A DNA stretch of 64,000 bases from Candidatus Zambryskibacteria bacterium RIFCSPLOWO2_02_FULL_51_21 (GTDB lineage: Bacteria; Patescibacteriota; Minisyncoccia; Phycocordibacterales; Zambryskibacteraceae), in the NCBI GenBank assembly GCA_001824255.1, contig MHWQ01000002.1, forward strand, positions 393,572 to 457,571. Reading direction: 5' to 3'. The position numbers and the translations under genes are program-made. A model generated the notes under the pieces. The model was given only the letters and a program-made list of their open reading frames with translations. It was not told where the DNA came from and did no database searches. Below, one piece after another: positions 1-13,425 of this stretch (position 1 is its first letter; every line of letters starts with the position of its first letter).

Positions 1-292
1 CGTAACAAGCCTGTACTCCAGGAAGATAAGACCCCAAATGCCATACAGACGGTATTCCAGCCATGTAATTCGAGTACTCAAAAGTGGAGTACGGCGAATA
101 GGTGATAAAACCAGACACAATCGCGGGCCCACCGAGGAAAAGGGGGGTAAACCACACCGCCAAATTGCCAGAGCAAGTGCACGGCACGCTAAAGGTGGAG
201 AGTCCTCCGAACGGCATTGTTACCGCTTTTGCGGAAGAAATCGGGAATAAAAGGAGGAGGAAGAACAAGAGAGACAAGGAAGCTGCTTTCAT
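1..292 (-). CDS. Partial CDS: secreted protein with N-terminal signal peptide (MKAASLSLLFFLLLLFPISSAKA...). C-terminus lies beyond the window start.
   Basis: Reverse-complement translation from ATG at 292..290 reads an open frame to the window edge. It has a hydrophobic signal-peptide-like N-terminus followed by a Cys-containing segment (VPCTCSGN). It is absent from the ORF track because no stop falls inside the window. Confidence 0.35.
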   Translation of the reverse strand, partial: MKAASLSLLFFLLLLFPISSAKAVTMPFGGLSTFSVPCTCSGNLAVWFTPLFLGGPAIVSGFITYSPYSTFEYSNYMAGIPSVWHLGSYLPGVQACY

Positions 293-337
293 ATTCCTAT
301 TATACACAATAAACCCCGTATTTATCTGATACAATTA

Positions 338-1114
338 ATGATTATGAGAGCTAAAATATTATCTGCTCTTTTTCTCTCCTTGATTATGATAGGGGCGGCA
401 TTTTGGTCCAGATTTTTCGACAACAAACCGGCCGCCGGTCTCGCCACTGTTTCAAGTCCAAGCATCACACCAATGAACGATGAGGCTTTTTTGAGTGCCA
501 ATTTCACCGACTCGAGCAGCACTCCGCTCTCGACTACGGATATGCTGTCCAGACAACTTTTTTCCGATTATGCCGACCTTAAGTCCAAAGGCGAAACTTC
601 TTCCGAAAATCTCAATTATCTGGCGGAAAGATATGCGGAAGGCATTATGAACATCAGACCGGCTGCCTCAAAGGTCACTGCCATCGAACAGCTTACGATT
701 ATTCCGGATTCGGCAGAAAACACTTTCAACTACGGCAAGAGTATGATTGCCGCCCGCAGCAAATATGCCGCCTTGGCCAAAGAGGAGAGCGAAGGCGCGG
801 GCGATCTGAATCAAGAAGGTTTCGGCGACTTCATCACGCGAGCCGGAAATTTATACCTCGCTTCGGCGAATGAGCTGTTGAAAATAAAAGTACCCGCATC
901 ACTCGCTAGAAATCACCTGGAGATTATCAATGACTATTTCCAAACCGCCGAAGCCATGAGAACCATCGCGGAATCTTCCGACGACCCGGTAAAAATTTAT
1001 GCCGCCATCCAGACGCAAATCCGGAATGCAAAAAAAGAAGATGAATTGTTCTTAAACATCCAAATCGCCATGTCAGCCGGTGGTATAATTTGGTCAGGCA
1101 ACCTGAATCAATGA
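338..1114 (+). CDS. Hypothetical membrane-anchored protein (N-terminal TM helix, helical extracytoplasmic domain). First gene of the coupled operon.
   Basis: 258-aa ORF with hydrophobic N-terminus ILSALFLSLIMIGAAFW. Its stop overlaps the next start (ATGA at 1111-1114). Confidence 0.5.
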   Translation: MIMRAKILSALFLSLIMIGAAFWSRFFDNKPAAGLATVSSPSITPMNDEAFLSANFTDSSSTPLSTTDMLSRQLFSDYADLKSKGETSSENLNYLAERYAEGIMNIRPAASKVTAIEQLTIIPDSAENTFNYGKSMIAARSKYAALAKEESEGAGDLNQEGFGDFITRAGNLYLASANELLKIKVPASLARNHLEIINDYFQTAEAMRTIAESSDDPVKIYAAIQTQIRNAKKEDELFLNIQIAMSAGGIIWSGNLNQ

Positions 1115-3669
1115 GTTATAAAAAATTTACAGTCCTTATTCTCGCCCTCTCGATATCTTTTCTATCTTTTGCTCCGGTAGTCCGGGCCCAAACCGCGGTA
1201 CCGGTAAGCGACAGCGCCATAAGACAGAAGGAGGTCGGCATTACCGTATTTGGCGTTACCGTTCCCGGCCTAAGTTGGGACTCCATCGCGCTAACGATAG
1301 CAAAATCTACGATTAGCAGGCTCGTAAATTCCACAGTCAAATGGATTAACAACGGCTTCGACGGCAACCCGGCCTACGTAAACAATCCCAAACAATATTT
1401 TACGGATATCGCCGATGGAGAAGCGGGGGAGTTTATCAGAGGAAGCGAGCTCGGCTTGCTCTGTTCGCCATTTCAGGCCAATATCCGGCTTTCTTTGATG
1501 CAGGAATATTACGAGCCCCTGCCTTATCAATGCACCTTGAGCGAAGTTACAAGTAATATTGAAGGATTCTTTGACGATTTCTCGCAAGGTGGCTGGGATG
1601 CATGGTTCTCGATGACGCAGAACCCGACCAATAATCCTTACGGAGCATATCTCAAGGCGAGAATTGACATGGATAGTCGCATCGCAAACGCAATCGGACT
1701 CAAAAATCAGCAATTAGATCGAGGCAGGGGCTTTCTCTCGTTTGAAAAATGCCCATCAGGTTCCTTCGAGGGTACCGATGAGGAGCTCAATAAAGGATGC
1801 TTCAAGACCGGCACTTGGGAAAAGGTGGATGCGACAGTGGTTACGCCGGGAAGCGTGATAGAAACCCAGCTTTCCACCGTATTGGGTACCGGCATAAGAC
1901 AGCTCGAGCTCGCGGACGAGTTCGATGAAATCGTGGGCGCTTTAGTAACCCAATTACTTCAAAAAGTTCTCGGCGGCGGCGGGCTGGCAAGCGGAGCAGG
2001 TACGGGTGATACAGAAAGACCCCCGGGTCAGGAAAGAAGGCCTGTGCCAGTTGATATTGATGGCGACGGCATCATTGACGGCACGGATACTGATGGGAAT
2101 GGGAGCCCTGATATATGTCTCTTCGGCGGTGAAAACGATACGATAGGCCCACCATGTTTAGGCTCGGGAGAATTTGGACCACCGGAAGGCGGTGGAGGAG
2201 GTGACACTTGCTCCGTGAGCGGCCAGCAATACGAAGGCGTGTTAAGGGACGCCGAAGCGCAGGTGGCAAGCGTCAATCCCGAAGTGGCGAGCTTGCTCAA
2301 TCTTGAAGACGCCAATGGCTACAAGGCCAATAGTAAAAGGTTCTTGGATGTGGTAGTGCAAATTCTCGAGGGCCAGGGCTACAATGCCACCACCGATGTT
2401 CTGAACGGACACAATAATCCAAATACGGGCGACGCCATCGCCATCTGGAGAGACGGCGATAGCAATATGGAGCGCTACGACGCCATGCTTGGAGGGAACG
2501 GCAAACCGGTGTCCCAATCGGCTATTGCCGAATTCACGGGCTTCGTGCCTCTGGGCTGCACCACTTCCGGCGGGAGCAAGGAGTGCGGCTGCGACAACGG
2601 TTTGAATAATCCAAGCCCGAGCCCGTCGCCTTCGCCATCTCCCACACCCGCGCCAGTGCCGGGCGGAGCAAGCATTTCTTCCGTCACGCCAAATGTCGCC
2701 CAAGCCGGAGTGACGACCATTACCATCACCGGCACGAATCTCACTAATCAAGTCTCCTTCTATGACGGTACTGGGGCACGCAATACTGTTGTCGGCACCG
2801 TCAACTCCGCCGGAACTCAAACCACGGTCCTTGTCCCGGGCGATTTGCCTATTGGCAATGCCACGGTCAAGATTTACCAAGGCAATCAAGTCTGGTCGAA
2901 CGGCATCTTGATACAAATCAGTAGCCAGGCGGCGCCGGTAACCACCATTCCCACGACGGGGAGTATTGACCTCGGAGCCGGGACCTTCCCGGATACCGCA
3001 TACTTCAACAACAGAATCTATGTCGCTGTCCAGCAGAATGACAAACTTAATCTCTATAACTTCGACAAGAATCTCTCTGACCAGAAAGTAACCGTGATTC
3101 CGTTCTCCGTTGGCCAGGCTTTCCCGCGGCTTATGGTCTGGAATAATATCCTGTGGCTTGCTTTCAGAAATGGCGATAACTCAAGTGGCATAGCGGAATC
3201 AATCAAACTCTGGAGAAGCGACACGCAGGCGATAGAGGAGATTGCCGGCGGCTATGGCAACGACCCGGTCGCTCTCGGCCAGGGTTACATCGCCTGGCAA
3301 ACATTTACAGAACTTAAAATCAAGAGGAGACCTGTTTCCGGCGGAACAATTACGACGCTTGGCAACGCGCTCCCTACCGGTCTCTCGAGAATCTTAGCTG
3401 GTGGAAGCGTCATTTCCATAGACCAGGATAGAAACGCGGTGACATGGGGTTTGCGAGCCTGGTTCGCCGGCGACCTCACAGTGGCCGAAGATATCACTCC
3501 CCATGATGATAATGGGGCGGTCGGAAGATTCAATAATGATTCTTCGACCGAATTCAATCTCTGGGCGGGCCAGAGAACGCATACGCCACACGCGGCAACT
3601 GATGGGCTAGGCAATTACGTAGTCGCGACCTGGGACCCGACGGTGAGGGTGGCCACATTCAAGAAATGA
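1111..3669 (+). CDS. Large secreted protein with signal peptide, Asp/Gly-rich calcium-binding-like repeats, a Pro/Ser linker and an IPT/TIG-like beta-sandwich segment. Putative surface or adhesin protein.
   Basis: MSYKKFTVLILALSISFLSFAPVVRA-QT signal peptide. DIDGDGIIDGTDTDGNGSPD repeat. PSPSPSPSPSPTPAPVP linker followed by ISSVTPNVAQAGVTTITITGTNLTN (IPT/TIG-like). Start chosen at the internal Met so that it overlaps the upstream stop (ATGA). Confidence 0.55.
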   Translation: MSYKKFTVLILALSISFLSFAPVVRAQTAVPVSDSAIRQKEVGITVFGVTVPGLSWDSIALTIAKSTISRLVNSTVKWINNGFDGNPAYVNNPKQYFTDIADGEAGEFIRGSELGLLCSPFQANIRLSLMQEYYEPLPYQCTLSEVTSNIEGFFDDFSQGGWDAWFSMTQNPTNNPYGAYLKARIDMDSRIANAIGLKNQQLDRGRGFLSFEKCPSGSFEGTDEELNKGCFKTGTWEKVDATVVTPGSVIETQLSTVLGTGIRQLELADEFDEIVGALVTQLLQKVLGGGGLASGAGTGDTERPPGQERRPVPVDIDGDGIIDGTDTDGNGSPDICLFGGENDTIGPPCLGSGEFGPPEGGGGGDTCSVSGQQYEGVLRDAEAQVASVNPEVASLLNLEDANGYKANSKRFLDVVVQILEGQGYNATTDVLNGHNNPNTGDAIAIWRDGDSNMERYDAMLGGNGKPVSQSAIAEFTGFVPLGCTTSGGSKECGCDNGLNNPSPSPSPSPSPTPAPVPGGASISSVTPNVAQAGVTTITITGTNLTNQVSFYDGTGARNTVVGTVNSAGTQTTVLVPGDLPIGNATVKIYQGNQVWSNGILIQISSQAAPVTTIPTTGSIDLGAGTFPDTAYFNNRIYVAVQQNDKLNLYNFDKNLSDQKVTVIPFSVGQAFPRLMVWNNILWLAFRNGDNSSGIAESIKLWRSDTQAIEEIAGGYGNDPVALGQGYIAWQTFTELKIKRRPVSGGTITTLGNALPTGLSRILAGGSVISIDQDRNAVTWGLRAWFAGDLTVAEDITPHDDNGAVGRFNNDSSTEFNLWAGQRTHTPHAATDGLGNYVVATWDPTVRVATFKK

Positions 3670-5786
3670 ATCCTTACTTCAAAAAATTAACAGTTTTCCT
3701 TCTTGTACTTAGCTTTGTGTTCGGAGTGAGTGGAATCGTATCTTCTAAAAAAGCTTCCGCTATTAATACGGTTGAGCAGTGCATGGCGGAAATGCTCGCC
3801 GCGGCCAAACAAGCTGGAAAGAATATGACGGAAGATGAGGCTAGGGCAAATTGTCAGAAACTAATCGATGACGCCGTAAAACAAGCAGGCGGAGGAGGAT
3901 CTTTGTTTGATCTTCTCCAGCCCGCGGAATGGGTTGCTAAGGCCGCCGGGGCACTGGCTTCCGGAATACTGCTGCCCTTGGCCGGCTGGCTTACCTGGTT
4001 TAGCGGCATGCTCCTCAACTATGTAATCAAATACACAGTCGTGGACATGAAAGCCAACCTGGACGTTGATGCAGTAAATAATATATGGAAAACAATTCGT
4101 GACCTTGGCAACATGGGGTTCATCTTCGTTCTTCTCTACGCCGCTATTCAAACCATATTGGGTATTGGTAAAAATACTAAAGATTTGATTGTGCGAGTAG
4201 TGGTAGTAGCGATTTTAATAAACTTCAGCTTATTCTTTACGAAATTTGTCATAGACATTGCTAATGTCTTGGCCATTACTCTATATGACGCGGCCGCGCA
4301 CGGGGCATTGGCTGATAATCTCAATAGCGGCCTGGCTAATAGTCTTATGGAGCCGTTGGGGCTCCAATCGATTTGGAACGCCCAAGGAAGCTTAACCGGT
4401 TACACACTTCTCATAGCAGGCGTCATGGGCACGGTTGTGTCTCTTATAGCGGCATTCGTCTTCTTCGCCATCTCCATACTCTTCGTCATCAGATTCGTGG
4501 TTCTCCTCTTCGTACTGGCGCTTTCGCCAATCGCGTTCCTATCATTTGTCCTGCCGGAACTCAAGAAGTACCGCGACCAATGGTGGGGAGCGCTCTCCGG
4601 ACAAGCATTCTTCGCTCCGATTTATTTCCTGCTTACCTGGATTGTCATAGCCATCGCAAGAGGCATCCTAATGCCGCTTAGACCCGGCAGTATGGCAGAC
4701 GTTATCGCGGCGCAAGCGGGAAAGAGTGTGCCTGACCCGAGTTCGGTGGGAATCTTCGTGAACTACGCGATGGTCATAACTCTGCTGATTGCCTCTCTCG
4801 TCATCGCCAAGGAATGGGCCAACAAAGCCGGCGGCGGCATCAACAAACTCACAGGGTGGGCAACTGGCTTCGCCGGGGGAGCGACACTGGGGGCCGCTGG
4901 CAGATTTGGGAGAGGCACTGTGGGTAGAGCAGGTAGTTTATTAACTGAAAACGAGTGGCTTAAAGAAAAGGCGCCGACAAGCAGGATGGCTCGCCTGGCA
5001 CTTGCTACGGGCAAGAAGACTGCTGGGGCAAGCTTCGACCTGCGTGGAACCGGTTTGAGTTCTCAACTGGATGCCGGTAAGGCACAGAAAGGTGGATTTG
5101 CCGCAGATCTTAAGAAAAAAGTTGATACTGAAAAGAAATATGCGGATGAAACCTTCAAGCCATCGGAGTTAATGGTTGCTCAAGCGGAACGAGACCTTGG
5201 CCAAGCCAAAAAGACTGGCACGCCAGCGGACATAGCGGCAGCACAAGCAAAACTGGACAAAATCAATGGAGCCAGCGAAGATACGCTCCGTCAAAGAAAG
5301 ATTAAAGAACTCCGCGCCACAGGAAAGAGTAAAAAGGAGGCAAGAATTCTAGTGGATGAGCAAGAAGATAAATATTTGCAGGAAGTTAACAGACTTACTA
5401 CCAGCGGTATGGGTCAAGAGGACGCCGAGAAAGATGCCCAGAGCAGGGGCTTCGTAACTTTCAAAGCAATCGAGGGTCTGACTAATACCAGAAAAGGAGC
5501 TTACGCCAAGACTGTCGAGGAACAGAAGGTAAAGATACCATTCACACAAAAAGCTATTCCATTTGCTATCACCGGCCGACTCGGAATGTTTGGCCCCGTG
5601 AAGAAAGAAAACAAACTGGCTGCAAATGCCATTAGAAAAAGTATGAAAGAAAAGAAGCCTGGAGAAAAAATTGCAGAGGAGATAGAGAAGCAAGCCAGAG
5701 AATCAAGTGATGAGTCTGGGGCAACGCCCACACCCCCCACCACACCAACAACTCCTCCACCAGCCGCAGGCCCAACAACACCATGA
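3666..5786 (+). CDS. Polytopic inner-membrane protein (at least 6 TM helices) with a long K/E-rich coiled-coil C-terminal tail ending in a Pro/Thr-rich segment. VirB6/TrbL-like putative T4SS channel component.
   Basis: Signal or anchor MNPYFKKLTVFLLVLSFVFGVSG. Multiple long hydrophobic stretches, e.g. LLIAGVMGTVVSLIAAFVFFAISILFVIRFVVLLFVLALSPIAFLSFVL. C-terminal TPTPPTTPTTPPPAAGPTTP. Translationally coupled (ATGA) to both neighbours. Confidence 0.45.
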   Translation: MNPYFKKLTVFLLVLSFVFGVSGIVSSKKASAINTVEQCMAEMLAAAKQAGKNMTEDEARANCQKLIDDAVKQAGGGGSLFDLLQPAEWVAKAAGALASGILLPLAGWLTWFSGMLLNYVIKYTVVDMKANLDVDAVNNIWKTIRDLGNMGFIFVLLYAAIQTILGIGKNTKDLIVRVVVVAILINFSLFFTKFVIDIANVLAITLYDAAAHGALADNLNSGLANSLMEPLGLQSIWNAQGSLTGYTLLIAGVMGTVVSLIAAFVFFAISILFVIRFVVLLFVLALSPIAFLSFVLPELKKYRDQWWGALSGQAFFAPIYFLLTWIVIAIARGILMPLRPGSMADVIAAQAGKSVPDPSSVGIFVNYAMVITLLIASLVIAKEWANKAGGGINKLTGWATGFAGGATLGAAGRFGRGTVGRAGSLLTENEWLKEKAPTSRMARLALATGKKTAGASFDLRGTGLSSQLDAGKAQKGGFAADLKKKVDTEKKYADETFKPSELMVAQAERDLGQAKKTGTPADIAAAQAKLDKINGASEDTLRQRKIKELRATGKSKKEARILVDEQEDKYLQEVNRLTTSGMGQEDAEKDAQSRGFVTFKAIEGLTNTRKGAYAKTVEEQKVKIPFTQKAIPFAITGRLGMFGPVKKENKLAANAIRKSMKEKKPGEKIAEEIEKQARESSDESGATPTPPTTPTTPPPAAGPTTP

Positions 5787-6319
5787 ACGAGCAAGATAAA
5801 TTAATTCAAGAACAGTTCCAAAAGCTCCCGCTAGCGCTGCAGAAGGCGCTCGGAGAGATTCCGTGGAAATCTTTAGTCAATGAAATTGCGCGGCTGCACA
5901 ATTTGAAGCCGGAACAGGTGGAGAGCATCGAGACAGAGACGATGTTTATCCTCTACGGCTTCGAGAGTCCGGACGATTACGTCTCCAATATGGTCCGCGA
6001 AACTGGTATTGCCGAAGATTTGGCGTATGTCATCGCAAACGAAGTAAACGAGAAAATTTTCAAGCCTGTTTCTGTGAAAGTTGAGGAGGCAGGCAAACAA
6101 CAACCAACCTCAACTTCCATTCCCGAACTCAAACCAGAGAATCTGCCGATGGTTGAGAAAGGGGAGATGGTACATGAGGTGCCACACGTAGAAGCACCAA
6201 ATCCCAAATCACAAATTCCAAACAATATCGAAATTCCAAAAGAAGAAAAACCTCCTATCCAACCAGCTAAAAGCGCTTATGTGGGCAGCCAGGACCCTTA
6301 TAGAGAACCACTATCATGA
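5783..6319 (+). CDS. Hypothetical acidic soluble protein inside the T4SS-like operon.
   Basis: 178-aa ORF with ATGA overlaps on both sides. No TM segment. Glu/Asp-rich. Confidence 0.45.
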   Translation: MNEQDKLIQEQFQKLPLALQKALGEIPWKSLVNEIARLHNLKPEQVESIETETMFILYGFESPDDYVSNMVRETGIAEDLAYVIANEVNEKIFKPVSVKVEEAGKQQPTSTSIPELKPENLPMVEKGEMVHEVPHVEAPNPKSQIPNNIEIPKEEKPPIQPAKSAYVGSQDPYREPLS

Positions 6320-6750
6320 GATTCCAAGTACCACAATTTATCGAGGTTGAGGATAAGATTTTCGGGCCTTTGACCTTCAAGCAGTTCGTCTATGTGGCGG
6401 GCGGGGGAGGCATCATCGTCATTTTCTTCGTCCTCCTGCCCAAGTTCATAGCCATCCTTCTCGCTTTACCGATAGCGGCCTTCGCCGGCGCGCTTGCCTT
6501 CTATAAAGTGAACGACAAGCCCTTCATCAATTTCGTCGAATCGTTCTTCAATTATTCGCTAAAGAGCAAGCTTTATATCTGGAAGAAGGAGGATAAGAAG
6601 CCCGAAGCGGGAACCGCCTCCGCTCCGGGCCAGATTGAGCAGGTTCACGTGCCGAAATTGTCCGAATCGAAGCTCCGCGAGCTTACTTGGTCACTTGATA
6701 TAAAGGAAAATAGGAATCCGGTCACGAACGAGCCGGAAAATAAGTTATAA
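6316..6750 (+). CDS. Small two-TM membrane protein, PrgI/VirB3-like, of the kind that usually precedes VirB4 in Gram-positive-type T4SS.
   Basis: 144 aa. Two hydrophobic helices (GGGGIIVIFFVLLPKFIAILLALPIAAFAGALAF). Located immediately upstream of the VirB4-family ATPase. ATGA overlap with the upstream gene. Confidence 0.45.
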   Translation: MRFQVPQFIEVEDKIFGPLTFKQFVYVAGGGGIIVIFFVLLPKFIAILLALPIAAFAGALAFYKVNDKPFINFVESFFNYSLKSKLYIWKKEDKKPEAGTASAPGQIEQVHVPKLSESKLRELTWSLDIKENRNPVTNEPENKL

Positions 6751-6757
6751 TTAGAGA

Positions 6758-7402
6758 ATGGCTGCCTCTTCCAATGCAACTCAGGAGTTCGTGCCCATCA
6801 AGGAGGTGCGCGACGGCATCGTCATTTTGAAGGATGGCGGCATGCGCGCCATACTCCTCTGTTCCTCGCTTAACTTCTCGCTCAAAAGCGATGACGAAAG
6901 GAACGCCATCCTCCTGCAGTTCCAGGACTTCCTCAATTCACTCGACTTCTCGGTGGAAATATTGGTCCAGTCGAGGAAGCTCGACATCAGGCCATACCTG
7001 GCTCTCCTTGAAGAGCAGGAAACGAAGCAGACCAATAACCTTTTGAAGATTCAGGTCAGGGAATACATCCAGTTCGTGAAGAAGTTTACCGAGGACGCAA
7101 ATATCATGACCAAGCACTTCTTCATCGTCATACCCTACAGCCCGGCAATCATTTCCGCGGGAAGAGCTGGCAGCTTCATCACCAAACTCGGCGTTGGTGC
7201 GAGCGGCAGCCAGAGCAAGACCTCGGGCAATGGCAGCTTCGACGAGAATAGAAGCCAGCTTGAGGAGCGGATGTCAGTGGTCGAACAGGGTTTGGTGCGC
7301 ACGGGCATACGTGTGGCGCGGCTTGGCACGGAGGAAGTAATCGAACTTTTCTACAAGGCCTTCAACCCCGGCGAGACCGAGAAGCCGATTAAAATGAAAT
7401 AA
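6758..7402 (+). CDS. VirB4/TrbE/CagE-family ATPase, N-terminal domain fragment (separate ORF from the ATPase body).
   Basis: FVPIKEVRDGIVILKDGGMRAILLCSSLNFSL...FLNSLDFSVEILVQSRKLDI resembles the conserved N-terminus of Gram-positive VirB4 homologues. Ends at TAA one nucleotide before the ATG of the next ORF, which is in a different frame. Confidence 0.55.
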   Translation: MAASSNATQEFVPIKEVRDGIVILKDGGMRAILLCSSLNFSLKSDDERNAILLQFQDFLNSLDFSVEILVQSRKLDIRPYLALLEEQETKQTNNLLKIQVREYIQFVKKFTEDANIMTKHFFIVIPYSPAIISAGRAGSFITKLGVGASGSQSKTSGNGSFDENRSQLEERMSVVEQGLVRTGIRVARLGTEEVIELFYKAFNPGETEKPIKMK

Positions 7403-7403
7403 C

Positions 7404-9296
7404 ATGGGAATTTTTGATTCACTTTTTAAAAAGGAGGCAAAGCGAGAAGATATTTCCTCAATTTTACCTAAGGAAATCTTCGAAGCGGGCGCCCTGGAGC
7501 TCAAAGACATCATCGCTCCCTCAGCTCTGAAGGTCTCGCCCAAGGAAATAAACTTGGGCGAGAAAATCCTGCGCAGCTTCTTCGTCATCTCCTATCCGCG
7601 CTATCTCGCCGAGGGCTGGTTCTCGCCCATTATCAATATGGACAAGGTTTTCGACGTCTCGATCTTCGTCCACCCGATTGAAACCTCGAAAGTACTTCGC
7701 CAGTTCCAGAGGAAGGTGGCCGAAGTGCAGTCCCAGATTCACACCAGGGAAGAAAAGGGCCTGGTGCGCGACCCCATGCTCGATGTGGCCTATCAGGACC
7801 TCGAGAACTTGCGCGACCAGCTCCAGCAGGCGCAGGAGAAGCTTTTCGATGTCGGGCTATATATCACCATCTACGGCGACAGCGCCGACGAACTCGACAA
7901 GGTTGAGAGCGAGATTAAGTCAATACTTGAGGCCAAACTCATTTATGTGAAGCCGGCCCTCTTCCAGCAGGAAGAGGGCTACAAATCAACCCTGCCTTTA
8001 GGCAATGACGAACTGAACGTCCACTCCAAACTCAATTCTTCCCCGCTCTCCTCGCTGTTTCCATTCACCTCCTTCGACCTTACTTCGGACAAAGGCATTC
8101 TCTACGGCATAAACAGGCACAACTCTTCGCTTATTCTCTTCGACCGCTTCTCGCTTGAGAACTACAACTCGGTCACCTTCGCCAAGGCGGGCGCCGGCAA
8201 GTCCTACGCCACCAAGCTTGAGATTCTCCGCACGCTCATGTTTGATACTGAGGTTATCGTCATCGACCCGGAGAAAGAGTACGAGTACATGGCCGAGGCG
8301 ACAGGCGGGCGCTACTTCAACATTTCCCTCAATTCCGAACACCACATCAATCCCTTCGACCTGCCCGTGCCGGGACCGGACGAGAGCGCCGCAAACGTCT
8401 TGCGCTCCACCATCATCAACCTGGTGGGCCTCTTCCGCCTCATGATGGGCGGCCTCACCGCCGAGGAAGACGCCATCATCGACCGCGCCATTACCGAAAC
8501 GTATGCGCTCAAAGACATTACTGCCGATTCCGACTTTAGAAACATCGAGCCACCCTTGATGTCTGACTTCGAGCTGGTGCTCTCCGGCATGGAAGGAGGA
8601 GAATCTCTGGCCCAGCGTCTGTCCAAGTACACCAAGGGCACTTGGGCGGGCTTCATCAACAGGCCTTCAAATGTGGATATCAACAGAAAGTTCGTGGTCT
8701 TCTCGCTCCGCGACATGGAAGATGAGCTTAAGCCCATAGCCATGTACATCGTCACGCACTATATCTGGAACACCATCAGAAAAGAGCTTAAGAAGCGCCT
8801 GCTCGTAATCGACGAGGCCTGGTGGATGATGAAGTCCGACGACACCGCCTCTTTCCTCATGGGTCTCGTCAAGAGAGGTAGGAAATATTACCTGGGTGTT
8901 GCCACTGTTACTCAAGATGTAGGCGACTTCCTCAAATCGCCTTACGGCGTGCCTATCATCACCAACTCCTCAATCCAGATGCTTTTGAAGCAGTCACCAG
9001 CAACGATTGACGAACTGCAAAAAACTTTCAATCTTACCGACGAGGAGAAATATCTTCTTTTGGAATCAGATGTTGGAGAAGGAATCTTCTTCGCCGGACT
9101 CAAACATGTGGCTATAAAGAATATTGCTTCGTACACAGAGCATCAAATTATCACCTCCGACCCAGGTCAGATCCTGGCCATAAAGAAGGCAAAGCAAGAC
9201 GCGGCCGAAGACCAGGATGAAGCGCTCATGGCCCAGCGGGAGAAACTGAAGCAGGCCGCCTTAAATCCAAATGCCGGAGAAAAAGGGACTCAGTAG
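7404..9296 (+). CDS. VirB4/TrbE/CagE-family T4SS ATPase (central and C-terminal ATPase domains).
   Basis: Walker A FAKAGAGKSYATK. VIVIDPEKEYEYMAEATGGRYFNISL. Walker B-like LLVIDEAWWMM. Overall VirB4 domain order. Confidence 0.8.
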   Translation: MGIFDSLFKKEAKREDISSILPKEIFEAGALELKDIIAPSALKVSPKEINLGEKILRSFFVISYPRYLAEGWFSPIINMDKVFDVSIFVHPIETSKVLRQFQRKVAEVQSQIHTREEKGLVRDPMLDVAYQDLENLRDQLQQAQEKLFDVGLYITIYGDSADELDKVESEIKSILEAKLIYVKPALFQQEEGYKSTLPLGNDELNVHSKLNSSPLSSLFPFTSFDLTSDKGILYGINRHNSSLILFDRFSLENYNSVTFAKAGAGKSYATKLEILRTLMFDTEVIVIDPEKEYEYMAEATGGRYFNISLNSEHHINPFDLPVPGPDESAANVLRSTIINLVGLFRLMMGGLTAEEDAIIDRAITETYALKDITADSDFRNIEPPLMSDFELVLSGMEGGESLAQRLSKYTKGTWAGFINRPSNVDINRKFVVFSLRDMEDELKPIAMYIVTHYIWNTIRKELKKRLLVIDEAWWMMKSDDTASFLMGLVKRGRKYYLGVATVTQDVGDFLKSPYGVPIITNSSIQMLLKQSPATIDELQKTFNLTDEEKYLLLESDVGEGIFFAGLKHVAIKNIASYTEHQIITSDPGQILAIKKAKQDAAEDQDEALMAQREKLKQAALNPNAGEKGTQ

Positions 9297-9597
9297 TGCA
9301 ACAATCGGTTTGATGACAGGCGTTGCCTTGTTTTATGACGTGCTTCAAATACTTTTTTCCTGGATGGGGCTCGGGTGGTTCATTATTCCCATTGCGTACG
9401 GCCATTTCTGGCTCTGGTTCAGAATGCGGGGATTGAAGTTTTTTACAACAAAGAGAGCCGTCTGGTTCGGCTTCGGCGTTCCGCTTGAAGCACTTACTGC
9501 CGGCATTTTCCCCAGTATAACCGGCAATGTCTTGCGGTCCGCGATGGATTATAAAATCGAGAAGACTCTCCCGACATCGGGTATAATAAAATCATGA
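9271..9597 (+). CDS. Small hydrophobic membrane protein in the T4SS-like operon.
   Basis: 108 aa with 2-3 hydrophobic helices rich in W/F (GLGWFIIPIAYGHFWLWF). Overlaps the VirB4 stop. Confidence 0.4.
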   Translation: MPEKKGLSSATIGLMTGVALFYDVLQILFSWMGLGWFIIPIAYGHFWLWFRMRGLKFFTTKRAVWFGFGVPLEALTAGIFPSITGNVLRSAMDYKIEKTLPTSGIIKS

Positions 9598-10265
9598 GAA
9601 AACTAGTCTTTCTGTTTTTTATCTACTTATTCTTTTCCACCCCAGCCCTTGCCCAGTCTGTTGATATTCTCTGGCAGGGAACGGGCTACATTCCGCCGTT
9701 TTACGAGGGCAAAATGCTTTGGGCCAAGCAGTCAGTCATTACTCTCGTGGCTATTCCGCAAGGATTGGGTAACCCCGCAAACCTTAATTACAAATGGACT
9801 CGTAACGGCACCGTGCTGGGCAACGTCTCCGGCATTGGCAAAAACTCTCTAACCTTCATGGACGCCGTTTTCTCCAAACCCTACACGATAAAGGTTGAGA
9901 TTGTTGACGGGAATGAAGAGACGCGCGCGGAAGCGACACAGGTCATCGCGGCAAGAGACCCCCTGCTACTGGTCTATGAGAATCACCCCTTGTACGGATA
10001 TCTTTTCAATAAAGAGATTGGGGGTGTCTTCAAAATGAACAAGGAGGAGGCCACCTTCACCGCCTTCCCCTTATTCGCACAGCAAAGAGCGGGGGCTTAT
10101 TCCTGGCGGGCCAATAGCGGAGAGCCTTCCGGCGGCAACACTGTCACTTACCGCGCGCCGGAAGGGGCGAGCGGCGTCTCCAGGGTAAACGTAAGTTTCT
10201 CTGATGGCAACGCGATAATGAGGCCTATCGAGCGCAGTTTCTTGATACAATTTGGCAATGAATAA
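9594..10265 (+). CDS. Secreted protein with cleavable signal peptide. Function unknown.
   Basis: MRKLVFLFFIYLFFSTPALA-QS signal peptide. Overlaps neighbours at both ends. Confidence 0.5.
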   Translation: MRKLVFLFFIYLFFSTPALAQSVDILWQGTGYIPPFYEGKMLWAKQSVITLVAIPQGLGNPANLNYKWTRNGTVLGNVSGIGKNSLTFMDAVFSKPYTIKVEIVDGNEETRAEATQVIAARDPLLLVYENHPLYGYLFNKEIGGVFKMNKEEATFTAFPLFAQQRAGAYSWRANSGEPSGGNTVTYRAPEGASGVSRVNVSFSDGNAIMRPIERSFLIQFGNE

Positions 10266-11139
10266 ACTTATTATTTCTATCTTTTTTCTGGCGCTTGCAG
10301 TTCCCGTCCTTGCCCAGGAAGCCAAGCCGACCGACTACACCATGCTTGCTCCCATACCCCAGCTTGCCACGGAGGGAGAGAAGACAAATGCCGTAACGTA
10401 CGTGACGGGTCTCTTCAAGCTCGCCATAGGTCTCGCCGGAGCGCTCGCGGTGGTGATGATTATCTACGCAGGCATCAAATATATGTCCACGGACGCTTTC
10501 AGCGGCAAGGAGGAGGCCAAAGGCGTCATCGAGAACGCCCTCTGGGGCTTGGGGCTGGCAATAGCCGCCTGGCTCATCCTCTATACCATCAACCCGAAGC
10601 TGGTGGAAATAAAATTCGACATAGCACCGCAGCAAATCGCCACGACCACAACAACGCTTGGTGGGGATCTGCCGGGAGGGGGTTGGGGGGGCGGAGGGGG
10701 AATTCTTCCTGGATATCCGCTTAGCCCAGAACAAGTGGCTGAGAACACGCAAATTAGGGATAAACTTAAAAACAACAAACCCTATCCTGTCTTGGTAAAT
10801 AATGACCCTTGCGCGACAGGAGGGACAATCGGGTGCACAAATGTTGTCGGTCTGCCGGACTCAGCCCTCACTAGTGCTAAAATCCTGGCTAATGCGTGCA
10901 AATGCACAATAACAATCACCGGAGGAACGGAGGGCGGTCATTCCAACCATGGACCAGGGAGGGCAGCTTTCGATCTTTCGCCCATTGGAGCTCTGAATAC
11001 TTTTCTCAGTAAAACTAACCCCCAAGCAGCCTTCCCTAGCAATGGTGCAAAAGTAAGAATCGGAACAACCGTTTACACTTTTGAAACCGCGGGAGCGAAT
11101 GGCAGAGCCACCGCTAACCATTGGCATGTAGAGCTTTGA
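10252..11139 (+). CDS. T4SS pilin-like protein (signal peptide plus two hydrophobic helices, as in CPR and Firmicutes conjugative pilins) with a Gly-rich linker and a roughly 170-aa C-terminal extension domain.
   Basis: MAMNKLIISIFFLALAVPVLA-QEA signal peptide. KLAIGLAGALAVVMIIYAGIKYMST...AKGVIENALWGLGLAIAAWLILYTINPKL matches the pilin-like pattern. GGDLPGGGWGGGGGILPG linker. Confidence 0.5.
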   Translation: MAMNKLIISIFFLALAVPVLAQEAKPTDYTMLAPIPQLATEGEKTNAVTYVTGLFKLAIGLAGALAVVMIIYAGIKYMSTDAFSGKEEAKGVIENALWGLGLAIAAWLILYTINPKLVEIKFDIAPQQIATTTTTLGGDLPGGGWGGGGGILPGYPLSPEQVAENTQIRDKLKNNKPYPVLVNNDPCATGGTIGCTNVVGLPDSALTSAKILANACKCTITITGGTEGGHSNHGPGRAAFDLSPIGALNTFLSKTNPQAAFPSNGAKVRIGTTVYTFETAGANGRATANHWHVEL

Positions 11140-11140
11140 T

Positions 11141-12364
11141 ATGAAAAAAACACTTCTAATCTCCGGCGCGGTCATAGCAATACTGCTTCTTGCCTTCTTT
11201 GCGTGGTTTTTTCTCGGCAGAGACAAGACTGTGCCGGCAGGAGAGGCGGTGATGAATCTTCTGCCATTCGGTTCTGGTGAAAATTTAGGTGAATCAGGAA
11301 TCACGAATCAAGAATCAGGAATAGGAATAACAGTTGGGGAAGAAAAAATTTTTGATGAACAGGGCGTGCCTACATCCAACCTTTTCCGCCTATCCGATGC
11401 ATCAGTGGCCGGTATGATTGCTTTCGCTCGTGGCGGACAGACTGTCGTGCGTTTTGTGGAGAGAGCCACCGGCCATATTTACGAAACCGCGCTGCCTAAA
11501 GATAAGGCCCTGGCGCCGTTGGAAAAAAAGAAAATCTCCATCAACACCCTGCCGAAGGTTTACGAGGCCTACTTCCGCCCGGACGGCAATATGGTGCTCC
11601 TACGGATGCTTGAGGACGGCTCTGATGCGCAAAAGAACCTCGTTTTGAACCTTGCGGCCACCACAAGCACTGCCGTGAATGTGCGCGGGGTGCTCGGCAG
11701 TATCGCGGTGGGGCAGGGAAATACTCTTTTCTATACCGAACTGGGGTCGAAAACGGTTGTCTCCTCTCCCTTCGGCGGTACCGTAAAAACTTTATACTCC
11801 TTTCCTTTTACCGACTGGCGAGTTTCCCCGGCCGGCACCGGCCTTCTCCTGGAGGCTAAACCGAGCGCCGAGGCCCCCGGTTTCGCTTATATTCTAAGCG
11901 CTGCCGGCTCGTTAACCAGAATTCTTGGATCTCTTTCCGGTCTTTCCGCAGTCTCCAATGCCGCGGGGACTTCCGTGCTTTATTCATACAATAACGGCAG
12001 TGAGATAAAACTTTTTGCCAGGAATCTCCGCACCGGCGCGGAAGTCGAAATTTCTCCGGCAACACTCGCCGAGAAATGCGTCTGGTCTGCAAAAGAATCC
12101 TCCAAGGTCTTTTGCGGAGCGCCCAATTCCTCCCCTTCGGCAGATGAGCCCGATGGTTGGTATGCCGGGGCAACACACTTTTCTGACTATATCTGGACTT
12201 CAGATTCTATTACTGAGATTTCAAAACTTCTGGCAAGTCCATTGGATGAATTCGGTATAGACATAGACGTTTACAAACCAATGCTTTCTCCAGCCGAAGA
12301 TTATCTTCTCTTCATCAACAAGCGCGATATGTCCTTGTGGGTTCTTAAACTGCCCGGGGCTTAA
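11141..12364 (+). CDS. Membrane-anchored extracytoplasmic protein, probably beta-rich or propeller-like. Last gene of the operon.
   Basis: N-terminal TM KKTLLISGAVIAILLLAFFAWFFLG. 407 aa. Converges on yidC. Confidence 0.5.
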   Translation: MKKTLLISGAVIAILLLAFFAWFFLGRDKTVPAGEAVMNLLPFGSGENLGESGITNQESGIGITVGEEKIFDEQGVPTSNLFRLSDASVAGMIAFARGGQTVVRFVERATGHIYETALPKDKALAPLEKKKISINTLPKVYEAYFRPDGNMVLLRMLEDGSDAQKNLVLNLAATTSTAVNVRGVLGSIAVGQGNTLFYTELGSKTVVSSPFGGTVKTLYSFPFTDWRVSPAGTGLLLEAKPSAEAPGFAYILSAAGSLTRILGSLSGLSAVSNAAGTSVLYSYNNGSEIKLFARNLRTGAEVEISPATLAEKCVWSAKESSKVFCGAPNSSPSADEPDGWYAGATHFSDYIWTSDSITEISKLLASPLDEFGIDIDVYKPMLSPAEDYLLFINKRDMSLWVLKLPGA

Positions 12365-13061
12365 CCTTTCTCCTAACAAAAAGTTCCTGCCCGATGCTGA
12401 AGAGGTTGGTGGTTAGGAAATACAGACCGATTACTCCGGAAACTTGATAAGAAATAAAAAACATAATGGCTGGAAAAACATATTTCATCTGTTTTTGCAT
12501 GCTTTTCGCCAAATTATCTCCGAAAGAATTCCCCTGGGGTTCCTTCTGGCCTTTGGTAGATACGACAAATTGCAAATAAGTCGAGACGGCTGCCAGAAAC
12601 GCAAGGATAATGCTTTTACCACTTATGTCTATGAGCCCCAGAAAAACAGTGTTAATGCTTAGCGGCGCGGAAACAAAAGAATACAGGAGCGACGCGTTAA
12701 TTGCCGGCAATTTGATGAAAATCTGGTAAAGCGCGAGAATTATTGGAATCTGGATGATTAGAACTAGAATGCCTGAAAAGGGATTAACCCCTTTTTCTTT
12801 ATAGAGAGAGAGGGTGCGGCGAGCCTGTTCCTCCGAATTATCCTTGTACTTCTCTTTAATGGCGGCAAGTTCCGGCGCAATCTCGGCCATTCTCACTTGC
12901 GTCAAAACCGCCTTGCGGGAAAGAGGAAAGAGTACCATGCGCACCAGCACGGTGAGAATCACCACGACAACCCCTGCATCAGCCCAGGGTAGAATCTTGA
13001 AAAGAACTATGAGCGAGTTATAAAGCGGGTCGAAGAAAAAAGCGTGGTAAAGAAAAGACAT
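12345..13061 (-). CDS. yidC: YidC/Oxa1-family membrane protein insertase (short Gram-positive/CPR form).
   Basis: VLFPLSRKAVLTQVRMAEIAPELAAIKEKYKDN...YKEKGVNPFSGILVLIIQIPIILALY is the characteristic YidC core. Conserved rpmH-rnpA-yidC synteny. Confidence 0.85.
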   Translation of the reverse strand: MSFLYHAFFFDPLYNSLIVLFKILPWADAGVVVVILTVLVRMVLFPLSRKAVLTQVRMAEIAPELAAIKEKYKDNSEEQARRTLSLYKEKGVNPFSGILVLIIQIPIILALYQIFIKLPAINASLLYSFVSAPLSINTVFLGLIDISGKSIILAFLAAVSTYLQFVVSTKGQKEPQGNSFGDNLAKSMQKQMKYVFPAIMFFISYQVSGVIGLYFLTTNLFSIGQELFVRRKVKPRAV

Positions 13062-13291
13062 TATATTATTCTAATCAATTCTTCTTCCAATGTCTTGCCT
13101 TTTAATTTTTCAGCGCCCGGCTTTGCTATCAGCAGATACTTTGCTGGTTTTAAAGAAATATTTTTGAGAATCGGGCGGATACGCCGTCTGACGGTATTCC
13201 TTACCACAGCGCTCTTGGAAACTTTTTTGGAGACAGAAATAATTACTTCAACCTTTTCACCGGGCGAAACGCGTAAAGAGAAAAAAGACAT
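13061..13291 (-). CDS. rnpA: Ribonuclease P protein component.
   Basis: Basic 76-aa protein (VRNTVRRRIRPILK). ATG at 13291 overlaps the rpmH stop (ATGA). Canonical position between rpmH and yidC. Confidence 0.8.
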   Translation of the reverse strand: MSFFSLRVSPGEKVEVIISVSKKVSKSAVVRNTVRRRIRPILKNISLKPAKYLLIAKPGAEKLKGKTLEEELIRII

Positions 13292-13425
13292 CAAAGAGCC
13301 AAGCGCGCCCGTCCCTTGCGGCGCCTGTTCCTTATAGTGCGTTTACCGGTGGATGTTTTCTTCCTGGAAAGAAAGCCGTGGGTGCGAGCTCGCTTGCGTT
13401 TCTTCGGGTTGTATGTTCTGGACAT
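13291..13425 (-). CDS. rpmH: 50S ribosomal protein L34.
   Basis: Manual translation of the reverse complement gives [44 protein letters not shown] (44 aa). It is absent from the ORF track because it is under 60 aa. Confidence 0.85.

What the first reader, a model, noticed from the sequence alone, without database searches (positions are those of the whole stretch)
1..12364. Origin-proximal operon encoding a type IV secretion / conjugation-like apparatus together with secreted proteins
Twelve co-directional genes run from 338 to 12364, and the first five junctions are ATGA stop/start overlaps. The operon combines a VirB4-family ATPase, a VirB6/TrbL-like polytopic membrane protein with a long coiled-coil tail, a PrgI/VirB3-like two-helix protein directly upstream of VirB4, and a pilin-like protein. 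It also includes at least five proteins with signal peptides or anchors, one being an 850-aa Ca-binding-repeat/IPT protein. No relaxase, coupling protein (VirD4) or integrase is visible in the window. The block sits immediately beside rpmH-rnpA-yidC and dnaA. This suggests a chromosomally fixed secretion or cell-contact machine rather than a transferable element. In an ultra-small genome that is a large investment and a candidate host-interaction system.
Basis: partly seen in the sequence, partly recalled or inferred. Interest (0 to 1): 0.8.

Follow-up and report, generated by a model that had tools for sequence, protein, structure and literature searches.

The report
Known Patescibacteria type IV secretion operon
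This is the chromosomal, non-conjugative type IV secretion gene cluster that sits beside the replication origin in many ultra-small Patescibacteria; it was described in 2023 and 2025, so the finding is real but not new, apart from a pilin-like protein fused to a probable cell-wall-cutting enzyme.

Summary
Twelve co-directional genes (338-12364) lie about 2.5 kb from rpmH-rnpA-yidC, dnaA, a DnaA-box cluster and dnaN.

Profile searches identify:
- a VirB4 ATPase of the Gram-positive CD1110 family
- a separate TrsD-like ORF matching the VirB4 N-terminus
- PrgI/VirB3
- a PF18895 VirB2-like pilin

A structure model supports VirB6 for 3666-5786.

No relaxase, coupling protein or integrase occurs in the window or in the 10 kb upstream. 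The window comes from a public 2016 Zambryskibacteria-type MAG (GCA_001823795.1).

The whole cluster and its housekeeping neighbours keep the same order in about 60 related species. VirB4 is the most conserved gene in the block (mean 82% identity, against 65% for DnaA). It is therefore a fixed core-genome machine, not a mobile element.

All of this, including the position near dnaA, was published by Wang et al. 2023 and Quinonero-Coronel et al. 2025. Verdict: already known.

Added details:
- The pilin carries a C-terminal Hedgehog/DD-peptidase-type (LAS) zinc-peptidase-like domain.
- In related genomes the extension at that position differs: a second Hedgehog-like family in 15 loci and unrelated sequences in the rest, some with hydrolase motifs by eye.
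- The 852-aa secreted protein has a conserved N-domain and a swappable adhesin-like C-terminus.

The parts
2..292 (-). Start of a small divergent gene for a secreted Cys-rich protein. Its full length is 123 aa from the ATG and it ends before ksgA. It may be an accessory of the cluster.
   Evidence: Translation shows a signal peptide. The full ORF is in L082:9584-9997. It is conserved, divergent and upstream of g01 in 15 related loci, with the pattern PFGG..PCTCS..PGVQAC. It has no Pfam hit. Three of four gene callers did not call it.
338..1114 (+). g01: 258-aa protein with an N-terminal membrane anchor. Function unknown.
   Evidence: ORF. Hydrophobic segment at residues 1-27. No Pfam or NCBIfam hit. 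Found in only 19 of 80 related loci, at about 29% identity.
1111..3669 (+). g02: 852-aa secreted protein. A conserved N-terminal domain (about residues 30-300) belongs to the cluster. The C-terminus is a species-variable adhesin-like part with two DxDxDG motifs, a Pro/Ser linker and an IPT/TIG-like segment.
   Evidence: Only residues about 30-300 align across loci (alignment A6). The N-domain family has 593 hits. Many are N-domain only (about 284 aa); others add InlB B-repeat, SdrD_B, or surface Ig-like plus F5/8-type-C modules. IPT/TIG E 0.015. DxDxDG at 315 and 326. No PDB sequence hit.
3666..5786 (+). g03: VirB6-like polytopic membrane protein. It has a cleavable signal, about 7 transmembrane segments within residues 90-385, and a 236-residue Lys/Ala/Glu-rich tail ending in a Pro/Thr stretch.
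   Evidence: AlphaFold model pLDDT 79. The top six PDB matches are all R388 TrwI/VirB6 chains. TrbL hits 3 of 44 orthologues, best E 2.7e-4. The transmembrane core is conserved and the tail is variable. Tail composition.
5783..6319 (+). g04: 178-aa soluble protein. Function unknown.
   Evidence: No transmembrane segment. No family hit. The N-terminal ~100 residues are conserved in 37 loci.
6316..6750 (+). g05: PrgI-family (VirB3-like) two-helix membrane protein.
   Evidence: Pfam PrgI E 1e-12, 48.8 bits against a cut-off of 27. Hydrophobic hairpin at residues 21-65. Present in 79 of 80 loci at mean 57% identity.
6758..7402 (+). g06: TrsD-like protein, a free-standing equivalent of the VirB4 N-terminal domain.
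   Evidence: NCBIfam VirB4_plasma residues 100-233, E 2e-11; TrsD E 9e-6; CD1110 positions 2-119. Precomputed PF26593 TraC-like. A separate ORF in 79 of 80 loci at 65% identity.
7404..9296 (+). g07: VirB4 ATPase of the MPF-FATA (CD1110) type, with Walker A (AKAGAGKS) and Walker B (LLVIDE) intact.
   Evidence: NCBIfam conju_CD1110 E 1e-111, above cut-off. Pfam P-loop_TraG E 2.6e-24. Walker B found by pattern; Walker A read from the translation. 78-91% identity in 80 species genomes. dN 0.07-0.09, the lowest in the neighbourhood.
9271..9597 (+). g08: 108-aa small membrane protein. Function unknown.
   Evidence: Hydrophobic segments. No family hit. Detectable in 16 loci.
9594..10265 (+). g09: 223-aa secreted protein, probably two Ig-like domains.
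   Evidence: Signal peptide. The orthologue profile hits phage T4 Hoc Ig-like domains, E 0.0016, in two stretches. Weak Big_9 hit. Present in 75 loci.
10258..11139 (+). g10: fusion protein. It consists of a signal peptide, a VirB2-like pilin helical hairpin (residues 45-111), a Gly-rich linker, and a C-terminal LAS (Hedgehog/DD-peptidase-type) zinc-peptidase-like domain (residues about 150-293). The invariant residues are H231, D239 and H288-W289(-H290).
   Evidence: PF18895 above cut-off. AlphaFold pLDDT is 96-98 in the C-domain. Invariant H/D/HW. With the C-domain profile, 17 of the 20 PDB hits (top hit included) are Hedgehog N-domains with the H and D of the Hedgehog motif aligned, E about 0.3-1.0. 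Peptidase_M15_4 E 7e-4 and VanY hits in individual members. The sister cluster A9 hits Sonic hedgehog at E 3e-5, and A8 against A9 by hhalign gives E 2e-4. 569 family representatives; 131 of 144 checked also carry the pilin domain.
11141..12364 (+). g11: 407-aa protein with an N-terminal anchor and a conserved extracellular domain (invariant C313, C325 and several Trp). Function unknown.
   Evidence: Full-length conservation in 66 loci. No Pfam or PDB sequence hit. In L039 the same domain is fused behind a pilin-like module.
12345..13425 (-). Context: yidC, rnpA and rpmH, convergent with the end of the operon.
   Evidence: 60KD_IMP E 2e-41. Ribonuclease_P E 8e-12. L34-like 44-aa ORF.
13523..16176 (+). 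Context: dnaA, a probable oriC (DnaA-box-like cluster at 14874-14973) and dnaN.
   Evidence: Cumulative GC-skew minimum at 14-18 kb.

Best explanation
[quoted passage not shown] It derives from the conjugation machinery of monoderm bacteria (MPF-FATA class) but has no relaxase or coupling protein in the cluster.

Shown here:
- The parts list is TrsD, VirB4, PrgI/VirB3, a VirB6-like channel protein, and a VirB2-like pilin fused to a LAS-type zinc-peptidase-like domain.
- Five further exported or anchored proteins accompany them. Two look adhesin-like: g02 has a variable C-terminus and g09 has Ig-like repeats.
- The operon is fixed next to oriC and is under very strong purifying selection.

Inferred mechanism:
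1. Sec exports the pilin fusion, VirB6 and the surface proteins.
2. PrgI and VirB6 form the membrane platform on which the TrsD/VirB4 ATPase docks.
3. VirB4 powers extraction and assembly of the pilin-like subunit into a short stalk or pilus.
4. The attached peptidase cuts peptide links in peptidoglycan (the cell's own wall, the host's wall, or both), so that the structure can cross the wall.
5. g02, g09 and g11 hold the host surface.
6. The resulting conduit serves the epibiotic or parasitic lifestyle.

Direction of transport is not settled by sequence. The cluster lacks a coupling protein, as do the uptake systems ComB and Ced, and these organisms need host nucleotides. I therefore lean to uptake of host macromolecules (about 45%) over export of Sec-delivered proteins or effectors (about 35%).
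For: - Component identification.
- No relaxase, T4CP or integrase in 74 kb.
- More than 592 species genomes encode a close VirB4 relative, and the best 80 are Paceibacteria-type MAGs at 78-91% identity.
- Gene order g02-g11 plus yidC/dnaA/dnaN/PBP is conserved in about 60 of them.
- VirB4 dN is 0.07-0.09, against 0.09-0.14 for DnaA and 0.15-0.22 for DnaN and YidC, with synonymous sites saturated.
- GC content matches the rest of the window.
- Literature: the same system, its MPF-FATA ancestry, TrsD, PrgI, VirB6, PF18895 pilins, absence of relaxase, and proximity to dnaA/dnaN/rnpA/rpmH/ksgA in Paceibacteria are described in PMC12102498.
- T4SS genes and pilins are essential for epibiotic growth of Southlakia epibionticum, while comEC is not (PMC10633639; PMC12857230).
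- Tubular structures interpreted as possible T4SS pili were seen at a parasite-host interface (bioRxiv 10.64898/2026.06.21.733656).
Against: - No experiment exists for any Paceibacteria system.
- The host, the substrate and the direction of transport are all unknown.
- A coupling protein could be encoded elsewhere in the genome. PMC12102498 reports VirD4 homologues far from virB4 in many genomes, and only 74 kb of this genome could be inspected.
- VirB6 rests on modest scores (TM-score 0.44 on the target length, E 2.4e-3).
- The peptidase assignment for this particular protein rests on sub-threshold hits, conserved residues and transitive homology. Fold searches with the two-domain model were uninformative.
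- No VirB8-like component was identified.
- Five products (g01, g04, g08, g11 and the g02 N-domain) have no assigned role.
Confidence: 0.85

Rival explanations
1. The machine exports proteins. Sec-delivered effectors, hydrolases or adhesins are pushed out or displayed by the T4SS, as in the coupling-protein-less Bordetella Ptl system, in order to manipulate or lyse the host.
For: Six of the twelve products carry Sec signals or anchors. A wall-hydrolase-like domain and adhesin-like modules are encoded in the operon. Wang et al. suggest protein export or another non-DNA role.
Against: No candidate toxin or effector with a recognisable secretion signal is present. The exported proteins may simply be structural or accessory parts. 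Nothing in the sequence fixes the direction of transport.
Confidence: 0.35
2. It is an integrated conjugative element, or its remnant, that happens to lie near the origin.
For: The VirB4, TrsD and PrgI families come from Gram-positive and mycoplasma conjugative elements.
Against: There is no relaxase, T4CP, integrase or flanking tRNA in the window or 10 kb upstream. GC content is native. Position and neighbours are identical in about 60 species. VirB4 evolves more slowly than DnaA.
Confidence: 0.03
3. It is only a surface-organelle or envelope-biogenesis machine. VirB4 assembles a pilin-anchored hydrolase/adhesin fibre used for attachment or for remodelling the cell's own wall, and no substrate passes through a channel.
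For: The pilin-like module is fused to enzymes or other extracellular domains. No coupling protein is present. The VirB6 match is modest.
Against: A conserved VirB6-like polytopic protein and PrgI accompany VirB4 in all relatives. These form the translocation channel in characterised systems (established knowledge; PMC12857230).
Confidence: 0.12

Closest known systems
Patescibacteria (CPR) T4SS clade as defined by Quinonero-Coronel et al. 2025 (PMC12102498). Its experimentally studied example is Southlakia epibionticum SEML1_0006-0019 (Wang et al. 2023, PMC10633639).
   Same: The shared features are an MPF-FATA-type VirB4, an adjacent TrsD, PrgI/VirB3, VirB6, a PF18895 VirB2-like pilin, no relaxase, a chromosomal location next to dnaA/dnaN/rnpA/rpmH/ksgA, and a monoderm-type parts list.
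   Different: There is a single pilin gene here instead of the arrays of 2-11 divergent pilins reported as especially abundant in Saccharimonadia and Microgenomatia. The pilin is fused to a LAS-type peptidase-like domain, whereas S. epibionticum has separate peptidase and lysozyme genes downstream of virB4. No experimental data exist for this class.
Gram-positive conjugative T4SSs of the MPF-FATA class (pGO1/pSK41 TrsC-TrsD-TrsE; C. difficile CTn CD1110; pCF10 Prg).
   Same: VirB4 passes the CD1110 family cut-off. The TrsD/VirB4 split is as in pGO1. There is a PrgI-family VirB3. A cell-wall hydrolase is associated with the channel, and there are no outer-membrane core components.
   Different: There is no relaxase, coupling protein or oriT-type context. 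A VirB2-like pilin is present, which Gram-positive systems lack. The hydrolase is a LAS-type peptidase fused to the pilin rather than an SLT plus CHAP VirB1-like protein. The cluster is fixed in the core genome.
Coupling-protein-less T4SSs: Helicobacter ComB and archaeal Ced (DNA uptake), and Bordetella Ptl (toxin export).
   Same: A VirB4-driven apparatus without VirD4 in the cluster. It is not used for conjugation.
   Different: There is no sequence-level membership. The CedB hit (E 2.5e-9) covers only the shared ATPase core. In Saccharibacteria, ComEC-dependent competence is separable from T4SS essentiality.
Hedgehog/DD-peptidase (LAS, MEROPS M15) zinc peptidases, including the bacterial Hedgehog-like M15A peptidoglycan peptidases (Roelink 2018, PMC6027127).
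   Same: The C-domain of g10 and of its sister cluster shares the T-E...H-x(6-7)-D...H-x-H pattern. The profile alignment places its invariant His and Asp on the H and D of the Sonic hedgehog 'SLHYEGRAVD' motif, which I identify from memory as zinc ligands.
   Different: The domain is fused behind a T4SS pilin-like hairpin. Scores for the window's own subfamily are below significance, and no activity has been shown.

Membership tests
Type IV secretion system, MPF-FATA class | VirB4-family ATPase of the FATA clade | tested here: met
   NCBIfam conju_CD1110 E 1e-111, 374 bits against a cut-off of 325. Also VirB4_plasma, TraC and VirB4_CagE. Walker A and Walker B are intact. No phylogeny was computed.
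Type IV secretion system, MPF-FATA class | VirB3-like protein (PrgI/TrsC) next to VirB4 | tested here: met
   Pfam PrgI E 1e-12, above cut-off. It lies two genes upstream of VirB4.
Type IV secretion system, MPF-FATA class | VirB6-like polytopic channel protein (PrgH/TrbL) | tested here: met
   The model's top six PDB hits are all R388 VirB6 chains, best E 2.4e-3, prob 0.94-1.0, TM 0.44. TrbL hits 3 of 44 orthologues. The window protein itself has no direct Pfam hit. Support is moderate.
Type IV secretion system, MPF-FATA class | VirB8-like (NTF2-fold) component (PrgL/TcpC/TraM) | tested here: inconclusive
   No sequence hit for any product.
Type IV secretion system, MPF-FATA class | Cell-wall hydrolase (VirB1 function) | tested here: inconclusive
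   The g10 C-domain is a LAS-type peptidase candidate. A LysM-Peptidase_M23 gene lies 4 kb upstream. Neither is a VirB1/TrsG/CD419 homologue by the profiles available, and no activity is known.
Conjugative element (ICE or plasmid T4SS) | Relaxase and type IV coupling protein | tested here: not met
   None among the ORFs scanned (nearly all ORFs of 100 aa or more in the 64-kb window; a few gap ORFs were not scanned) or among the called genes 10 kb upstream. The rest of the genome could not be inspected.
Conjugative element (ICE or plasmid T4SS) | Integrase, att repeats or tRNA boundary, foreign composition, patchy distribution | tested here: not met
   There is no integrase. The nearest tRNA is at 28 kb. 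GC is 0.48-0.54, like the rest of the window. Synteny is conserved in about 60 species.
Patescibacteria T4SS clade (PMC12102498) | VirB4 with adjacent TrsD, PrgI and a PF18895 pilin, no relaxase, in a Patescibacteria chromosome near dnaA/dnaN/rnpA/rpmH/ksgA | tested here: met
   The source is GCA_001823795.1, and the closest VirB4s come from Zambryskibacteria, Taylorbacteria and Parcubacteria MAGs. Placement in the published VirB4 tree was not recomputed.
VirB2/TrbC-type T4SS pilin | Signal peptide followed by a two-helix hydrophobic hairpin; match to a pilin profile | tested here: met
   PF18895 31.8 bits against 26.6; 12 of 13 orthologues match. The model shows helices 45-77 and 81-111. Polymerisation into a pilus is not testable here.
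LAS / Hedgehog-DD-peptidase fold (MEROPS M15-like) | H-x(n)-D and H-x-H zinc/catalytic residues on an alpha/beta sandwich; significant profile or fold match | tested here: inconclusive
   Residues H231, D239 and H288-W-H290 are conserved. With the C-domain profile, 17 of the 20 PDB hits are Hedgehog N-domains, but at E about 0.3-1.0. Peptidase_M15_4 E 7e-4 in 2 of 21 members. The sister family A9 is significant (E 3e-5) and is linked to A8 at hhalign E 2e-4, prob 47%. The fold search was uninformative because the helical hairpin dominated.

The most novel reading that the evidence does not exclude
The 'pilin' gene of this T4SS may be a modular carrier. It would have a conserved VirB2-like hairpin, which enters the pilus or stalk or anchors at its base, joined to an interchangeable extracellular head.

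In this genome the head is a Hedgehog/DD-peptidase-type zinc-peptidase-like domain. In sister species the head at the same position is a second Hedgehog-like family, domains that by eye look like M15, 3D, CHAP/NlpC, SLT or HExxH types, or the g11-type domain.

Together with the swappable adhesin modules on g02, this would make the apparatus an enzyme-armed drill whose cutting and binding heads are exchanged to match the host's wall chemistry. The heads would then act as host-range determinants for Paceibacteria.
Probability: 0.3. Interest if true: 0.6.

Novelty: already known. Interest (0 to 1): 0.3.

Why it matters
The system itself matters. It is thought to be central to how ultra-small, biosynthetically poor Patescibacteria live on host cells, and it is essential in the one species tested. 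That significance, however, is already recognised in the literature.

This window adds three things:
- It is a clean Paceibacteria example in which VirB4 evolves more slowly than DnaA.
- It shows that the pilin-like protein carries a probable peptidoglycan peptidase whose domain differs between species.
- It shows a secreted partner protein with exchangeable adhesin modules.

These details give concrete, testable handles for studying how the machine breaches a wall and recognises a host: zinc-site mutants, and correlation of head type with host wall type.

Tried and rejected
2. Sequence and profile searches of the PDB gave nothing for g10 as a single sequence, full-length g02, the g02 N-domain, g11, or the L080 C-terminus. 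The full-length g03 profile hit only low-complexity coiled-coil proteins through its charged tail.
3. Pfam and NCBIfam gave no hit for g01, g04, g08, g11 or the small upstream ORF.
4. The precomputed PF19590 label on some g03 homologues was not reproduced at E <= 0.01.
5. A DUF4141 hit on one g02 homologue (E 6.5e-6, below cut-off) was not pursued.
6. Promoter and terminator consensus scans were no richer than shuffled sequence. They therefore say nothing about operon boundaries.
7. dN/dS ratios could not be computed for most gene pairs, because synonymous sites are saturated even against the closest relatives. Only dN values were compared.
8. I read the hydrolase types of several other pilin C-termini (classical M15 in L080, 3D in L077, CHAP/NlpC and SLT in L031, HExxH in L007) by eye from motifs. 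They are not confirmed by any profile.
9. The ICE and pseudogene readings were considered and rejected, as set out under rival explanations.

Full report
**Observation**

Twelve ORFs on the + strand run from 338 to 12364. ATGA overlaps join the first five genes, at 1111, 3666, 5783 and 6316. That makes four junctions, not five. Another ATGA overlap lies at 9594, and the remaining junctions are gaps of 1-7 nt or short overlaps.

Six products begin with a hydrophobic signal or anchor segment, and two more are small membrane proteins.

Downstream, convergent with the operon, lie yidC, rnpA and rpmH on the minus strand. Then come dnaA, three DnaA-box-like sites at 14874-14973, and dnaN. The cumulative GC-skew minimum falls at 14-18 kb. 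The block is therefore about 2.5 kb from the probable origin.

Positions 1-292 are not the tail of an upstream gene. They hold the start of a small divergent minus-strand gene for a 123-aa secreted, Cys-rich protein.

**Components**

- **7404-9296, VirB4.** It matches the NCBIfam CD1110 family of VirB4-like conjugal ATPases at E 1e-111, 374 bits against a cut-off of 325. Weaker hits go to the mycoplasma-ICE VirB4, TraC and VirB4/CagE. Its best Pfam hit is 'P-loop_TraG'. From memory, that model covers the Bacteroides TraG, a VirB4 homologue and not the coupling protein.
- **6758-7402, TrsD-like.** This product aligns to the N-terminal 100-230 residues of VirB4 proteins and to TrsD (PF26593 TraC-like). 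VirB4 is thus split as in staphylococcal pGO1. The split is present in 79 of 80 relatives, so it is not an assembly error.
- **6316-6750, PrgI.** A VirB3-like protein, E 1e-12.
- **10258-11139, pilin.** It matches PF18895 T4SS_pilin above the cut-off.
- **3666-5786, VirB6-like.** The window protein has no Pfam hit, but 3 of 44 orthologues hit TrbL. An AlphaFold model of residues 1-490 has pLDDT 79. Its six best PDB matches are all TrwI/VirB6 chains of the R388 T4SS. I accept VirB6-like at moderate strength.
- **Tail of the VirB6-like protein.** The 236-residue tail is Lys/Ala/Glu-rich and ends in a Pro/Thr stretch. 'Coiled coil' is plausible but was not tested.

**What is absent**

Pfam scans of nearly all ORFs of about 100 aa or more in the window found only housekeeping genes. 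Apart from these there is a PilB-type ATPase and a fused restriction-modification enzyme in a low-GC patch. A few gap ORFs were not scanned.

An exact-protein look-up placed the window in NCBI GCA_001823795.1 (contig MHVS01000005.1, 283.6 kb) and in about 20 other metagenome contigs.

The 10 kb upstream encode an H+-pyrophosphatase, NusA, S15, a ComM-like ATPase, a LysM-Peptidase_M23 protein, a UvrD-type helicase and KsgA. No relaxase, VirD4-type coupling protein or integrase is present anywhere in these 74 kb.

**Comparative evidence**

A back-translated search of one genome per species found at least 592 close VirB4 relatives. The best 80 are Zambryskibacteria, Taylorbacteria, Parcubacteria or Paceibacterota MAGs at 78-91% amino-acid identity.

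In about 60 of them the order g02-g11, then yidC(-), dnaA, dnaN and a class A PBP(-), is the same as in the window.

Mean identities to the window proteins:

| Protein | Mean identity |
|---|---|
| VirB4 | 82% |
| TrsD | 65% |
| DnaA | 65% |
| PrgI | 57% |
| YidC, DnaN | 50% |
| pilin (g10) | 40% |
| g02 | 38% |
| VirB6-like (g03), g09 | 34% |
| g11 | 32% |

Against the five nearest relatives, synonymous sites are saturated. VirB4 has the lowest non-synonymous distance of any gene in the block: dN 0.07-0.09, against 0.09-0.14 for DnaA.

This is the signature of a fixed, strongly constrained core-genome machine. It is not the signature of a mobile element or a decaying remnant.

**Prior knowledge**

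Quinonero-Coronel et al. 2025 (PMC12102498) describe this system across Patescibacteria. They report:
- a distinct VirB4 clade related to MPF-FATA
- abundant TrsD, PrgI and VirB6
- PF18895 VirB2-like pilins near virB4
- almost no relaxases, and VirD4 homologues mostly far from virB4
- in Paceibacteria and Microgenomatia, proximity to dnaA, dnaN, rnpA, rpmH and ksgA

Wang et al. 2023 (PMC10633639) showed by Tn-seq that the T4SS and its pilins are essential for epibiotic growth of Southlakia epibionticum. A 2025 review (PMC12857230) lists these systems as a new branch of the T4SS superfamily.

**Added detail 1: the pilin is a fusion**

The g10 model has pLDDT 84 overall. It shows a signal peptide, a two-helix hairpin (residues 45-111), a disordered Gly-rich linker, and a compact alpha/beta domain (residues about 150-293, pLDDT 96-98).

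- Across 70 homologues H231 and D239 are invariant and H288-W289 are kept in at least 90%; in the 13- and 21-sequence alignments all four are invariant. H290 is nearly invariant.
- A profile of this domain retrieves mainly Hedgehog N-terminal domains from the PDB (17 of 20 hits), with the H and D of the Hedgehog 'SLHYEGRAVD' motif aligned. I identify these from memory as zinc ligands. The E-values are only about 0.3-1.0.
- Individual members hit Peptidase_M15_4 (E 7e-4) and VanY.

In related genomes the pilin module at the syntenic position is conserved but its C-terminal extension differs:
- 15 loci have the window's type.
- 15 loci have a second family. Its profile hits Sonic hedgehog significantly (E 3e-5; 25 of 26 hits are Hedgehog proteins), and it aligns to the window's type at hhalign E 2e-4, probability 47%.
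- Others carry sequences that by eye look like classical M15, 3D, CHAP/NlpC, SLT or HExxH domains, coiled coils, or the g11-type domain. These by-eye calls are not confirmed by any profile.

An exhaustive search found 569 cluster representatives of the window's C-domain. Of 144 checked, 131 also contain the pilin module.

I conclude, at about 70-80% confidence, that g10 is a pilin-anchored LAS-type zinc peptidase that fills the VirB1 (wall-opening) role. The main text of the 2025 paper does not mention such fusions. [quoted passage not shown]

**Added detail 2: g02 and g09**

Only residues about 30-300 of g02 are conserved. Many family members consist of this domain alone. Others append InlB B-repeat, SdrD-B, or surface Ig-like plus discoidin modules. 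The window's protein has two DxDxDG motifs, a Pro/Ser linker, a weak IPT/TIG segment and about 250 further residues.

The g09 orthologue profile weakly matches the Ig-like domains of phage T4 Hoc (E 0.0016).

These features fit surface-exposed binding proteins whose variable parts could recognise hosts. This is inference.

**Mechanism**

*Shown:* the parts list, its conservation, and the lack of conjugation genes nearby.

*Inferred:* Sec-exported pilin fusion, VirB6 and PrgI form the membrane platform. TrsD/VirB4 energises assembly of a short stalk or pilus. The peptidase opens peptidoglycan; the organism has its own wall, as shown by the PBP1 gene at 16386-18515. The surface proteins bind the host, and a conduit forms.

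*Direction:* open. I lean to uptake of host macromolecules, by analogy with the coupling-protein-less ComB and Ced systems and because of the nucleotide auxotrophy of these bacteria. Export of Sec-delivered proteins is nearly as likely.

**Verdict**

The feature is real and was correctly interpreted, but it is already known. The pilin-peptidase fusion with differing heads between species, and the extreme conservation of VirB4, are modest new details worth a specialist's attention. They do not change the category.

Noticed in passing
window 52231-55437 (+): The isoleucyl-tRNA synthetase (1068 aa) contains an inserted histidine-phosphatase-superfamily segment. His_Phos_1 matches residues 489-573 at E 5e-22, and the RH(A)E..N motif 'LMRHAEAIDN' is present.
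   Followed up: partly
window 34969-37260 (-), within the low-GC patch 34-38 kb: A single 763-aa polypeptide combines HSDR_N, HsdM_N, N6_Mtase and Methylase_S domains, i.e. a fused restriction-modification enzyme. GC here is 0.37-0.40 against about 0.50 elsewhere, and the gene lies next to tRNA-Ser (37347-37434). It is probably a horizontally acquired islet.
   Followed up: no
window 22127-23803 (-): A PilB/T2SSE-type ATPase with an MshEN domain (E 2e-116), i.e. a type IV pilus motor, is encoded 10 kb from the T4SS. In Saccharibacteria both machines are needed for epibiotic growth.
   Followed up: no
window 2-292 (-); full ORF L082:9587-9955 (-): A small (123 aa) secreted Cys-rich protein gene is divergent from the operon. 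It is conserved in at least 15 related loci, has no family match, and was missed by three of four gene callers.
   Followed up: partly
window 338-12364 relative to 14874-14973: The 12-kb operon is transcribed towards the probable oriC, which lies between dnaA and dnaN. It is therefore head-on to the leftward replication fork. The same arrangement is kept in about 60 species.
   Followed up: partly
L081/L082 5809-6789 (-), about 4 kb upstream of window position 1: A LysM-LysM-Peptidase_M23 protein is encoded three genes upstream of the operon, separated from it by uvrD/pcrA and ksgA. It may be a second wall hydrolase associated with the T4SS, as the 2025 paper reports for Paceibacteria.
   Followed up: no
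L039:5354-7021 (+): In one relative, the g11-type extracellular domain is fused behind a pilin-like module (PF18895 E 0.01). This links g11 to the same 'pilin carrier' theme as g10.
   Followed up: partly
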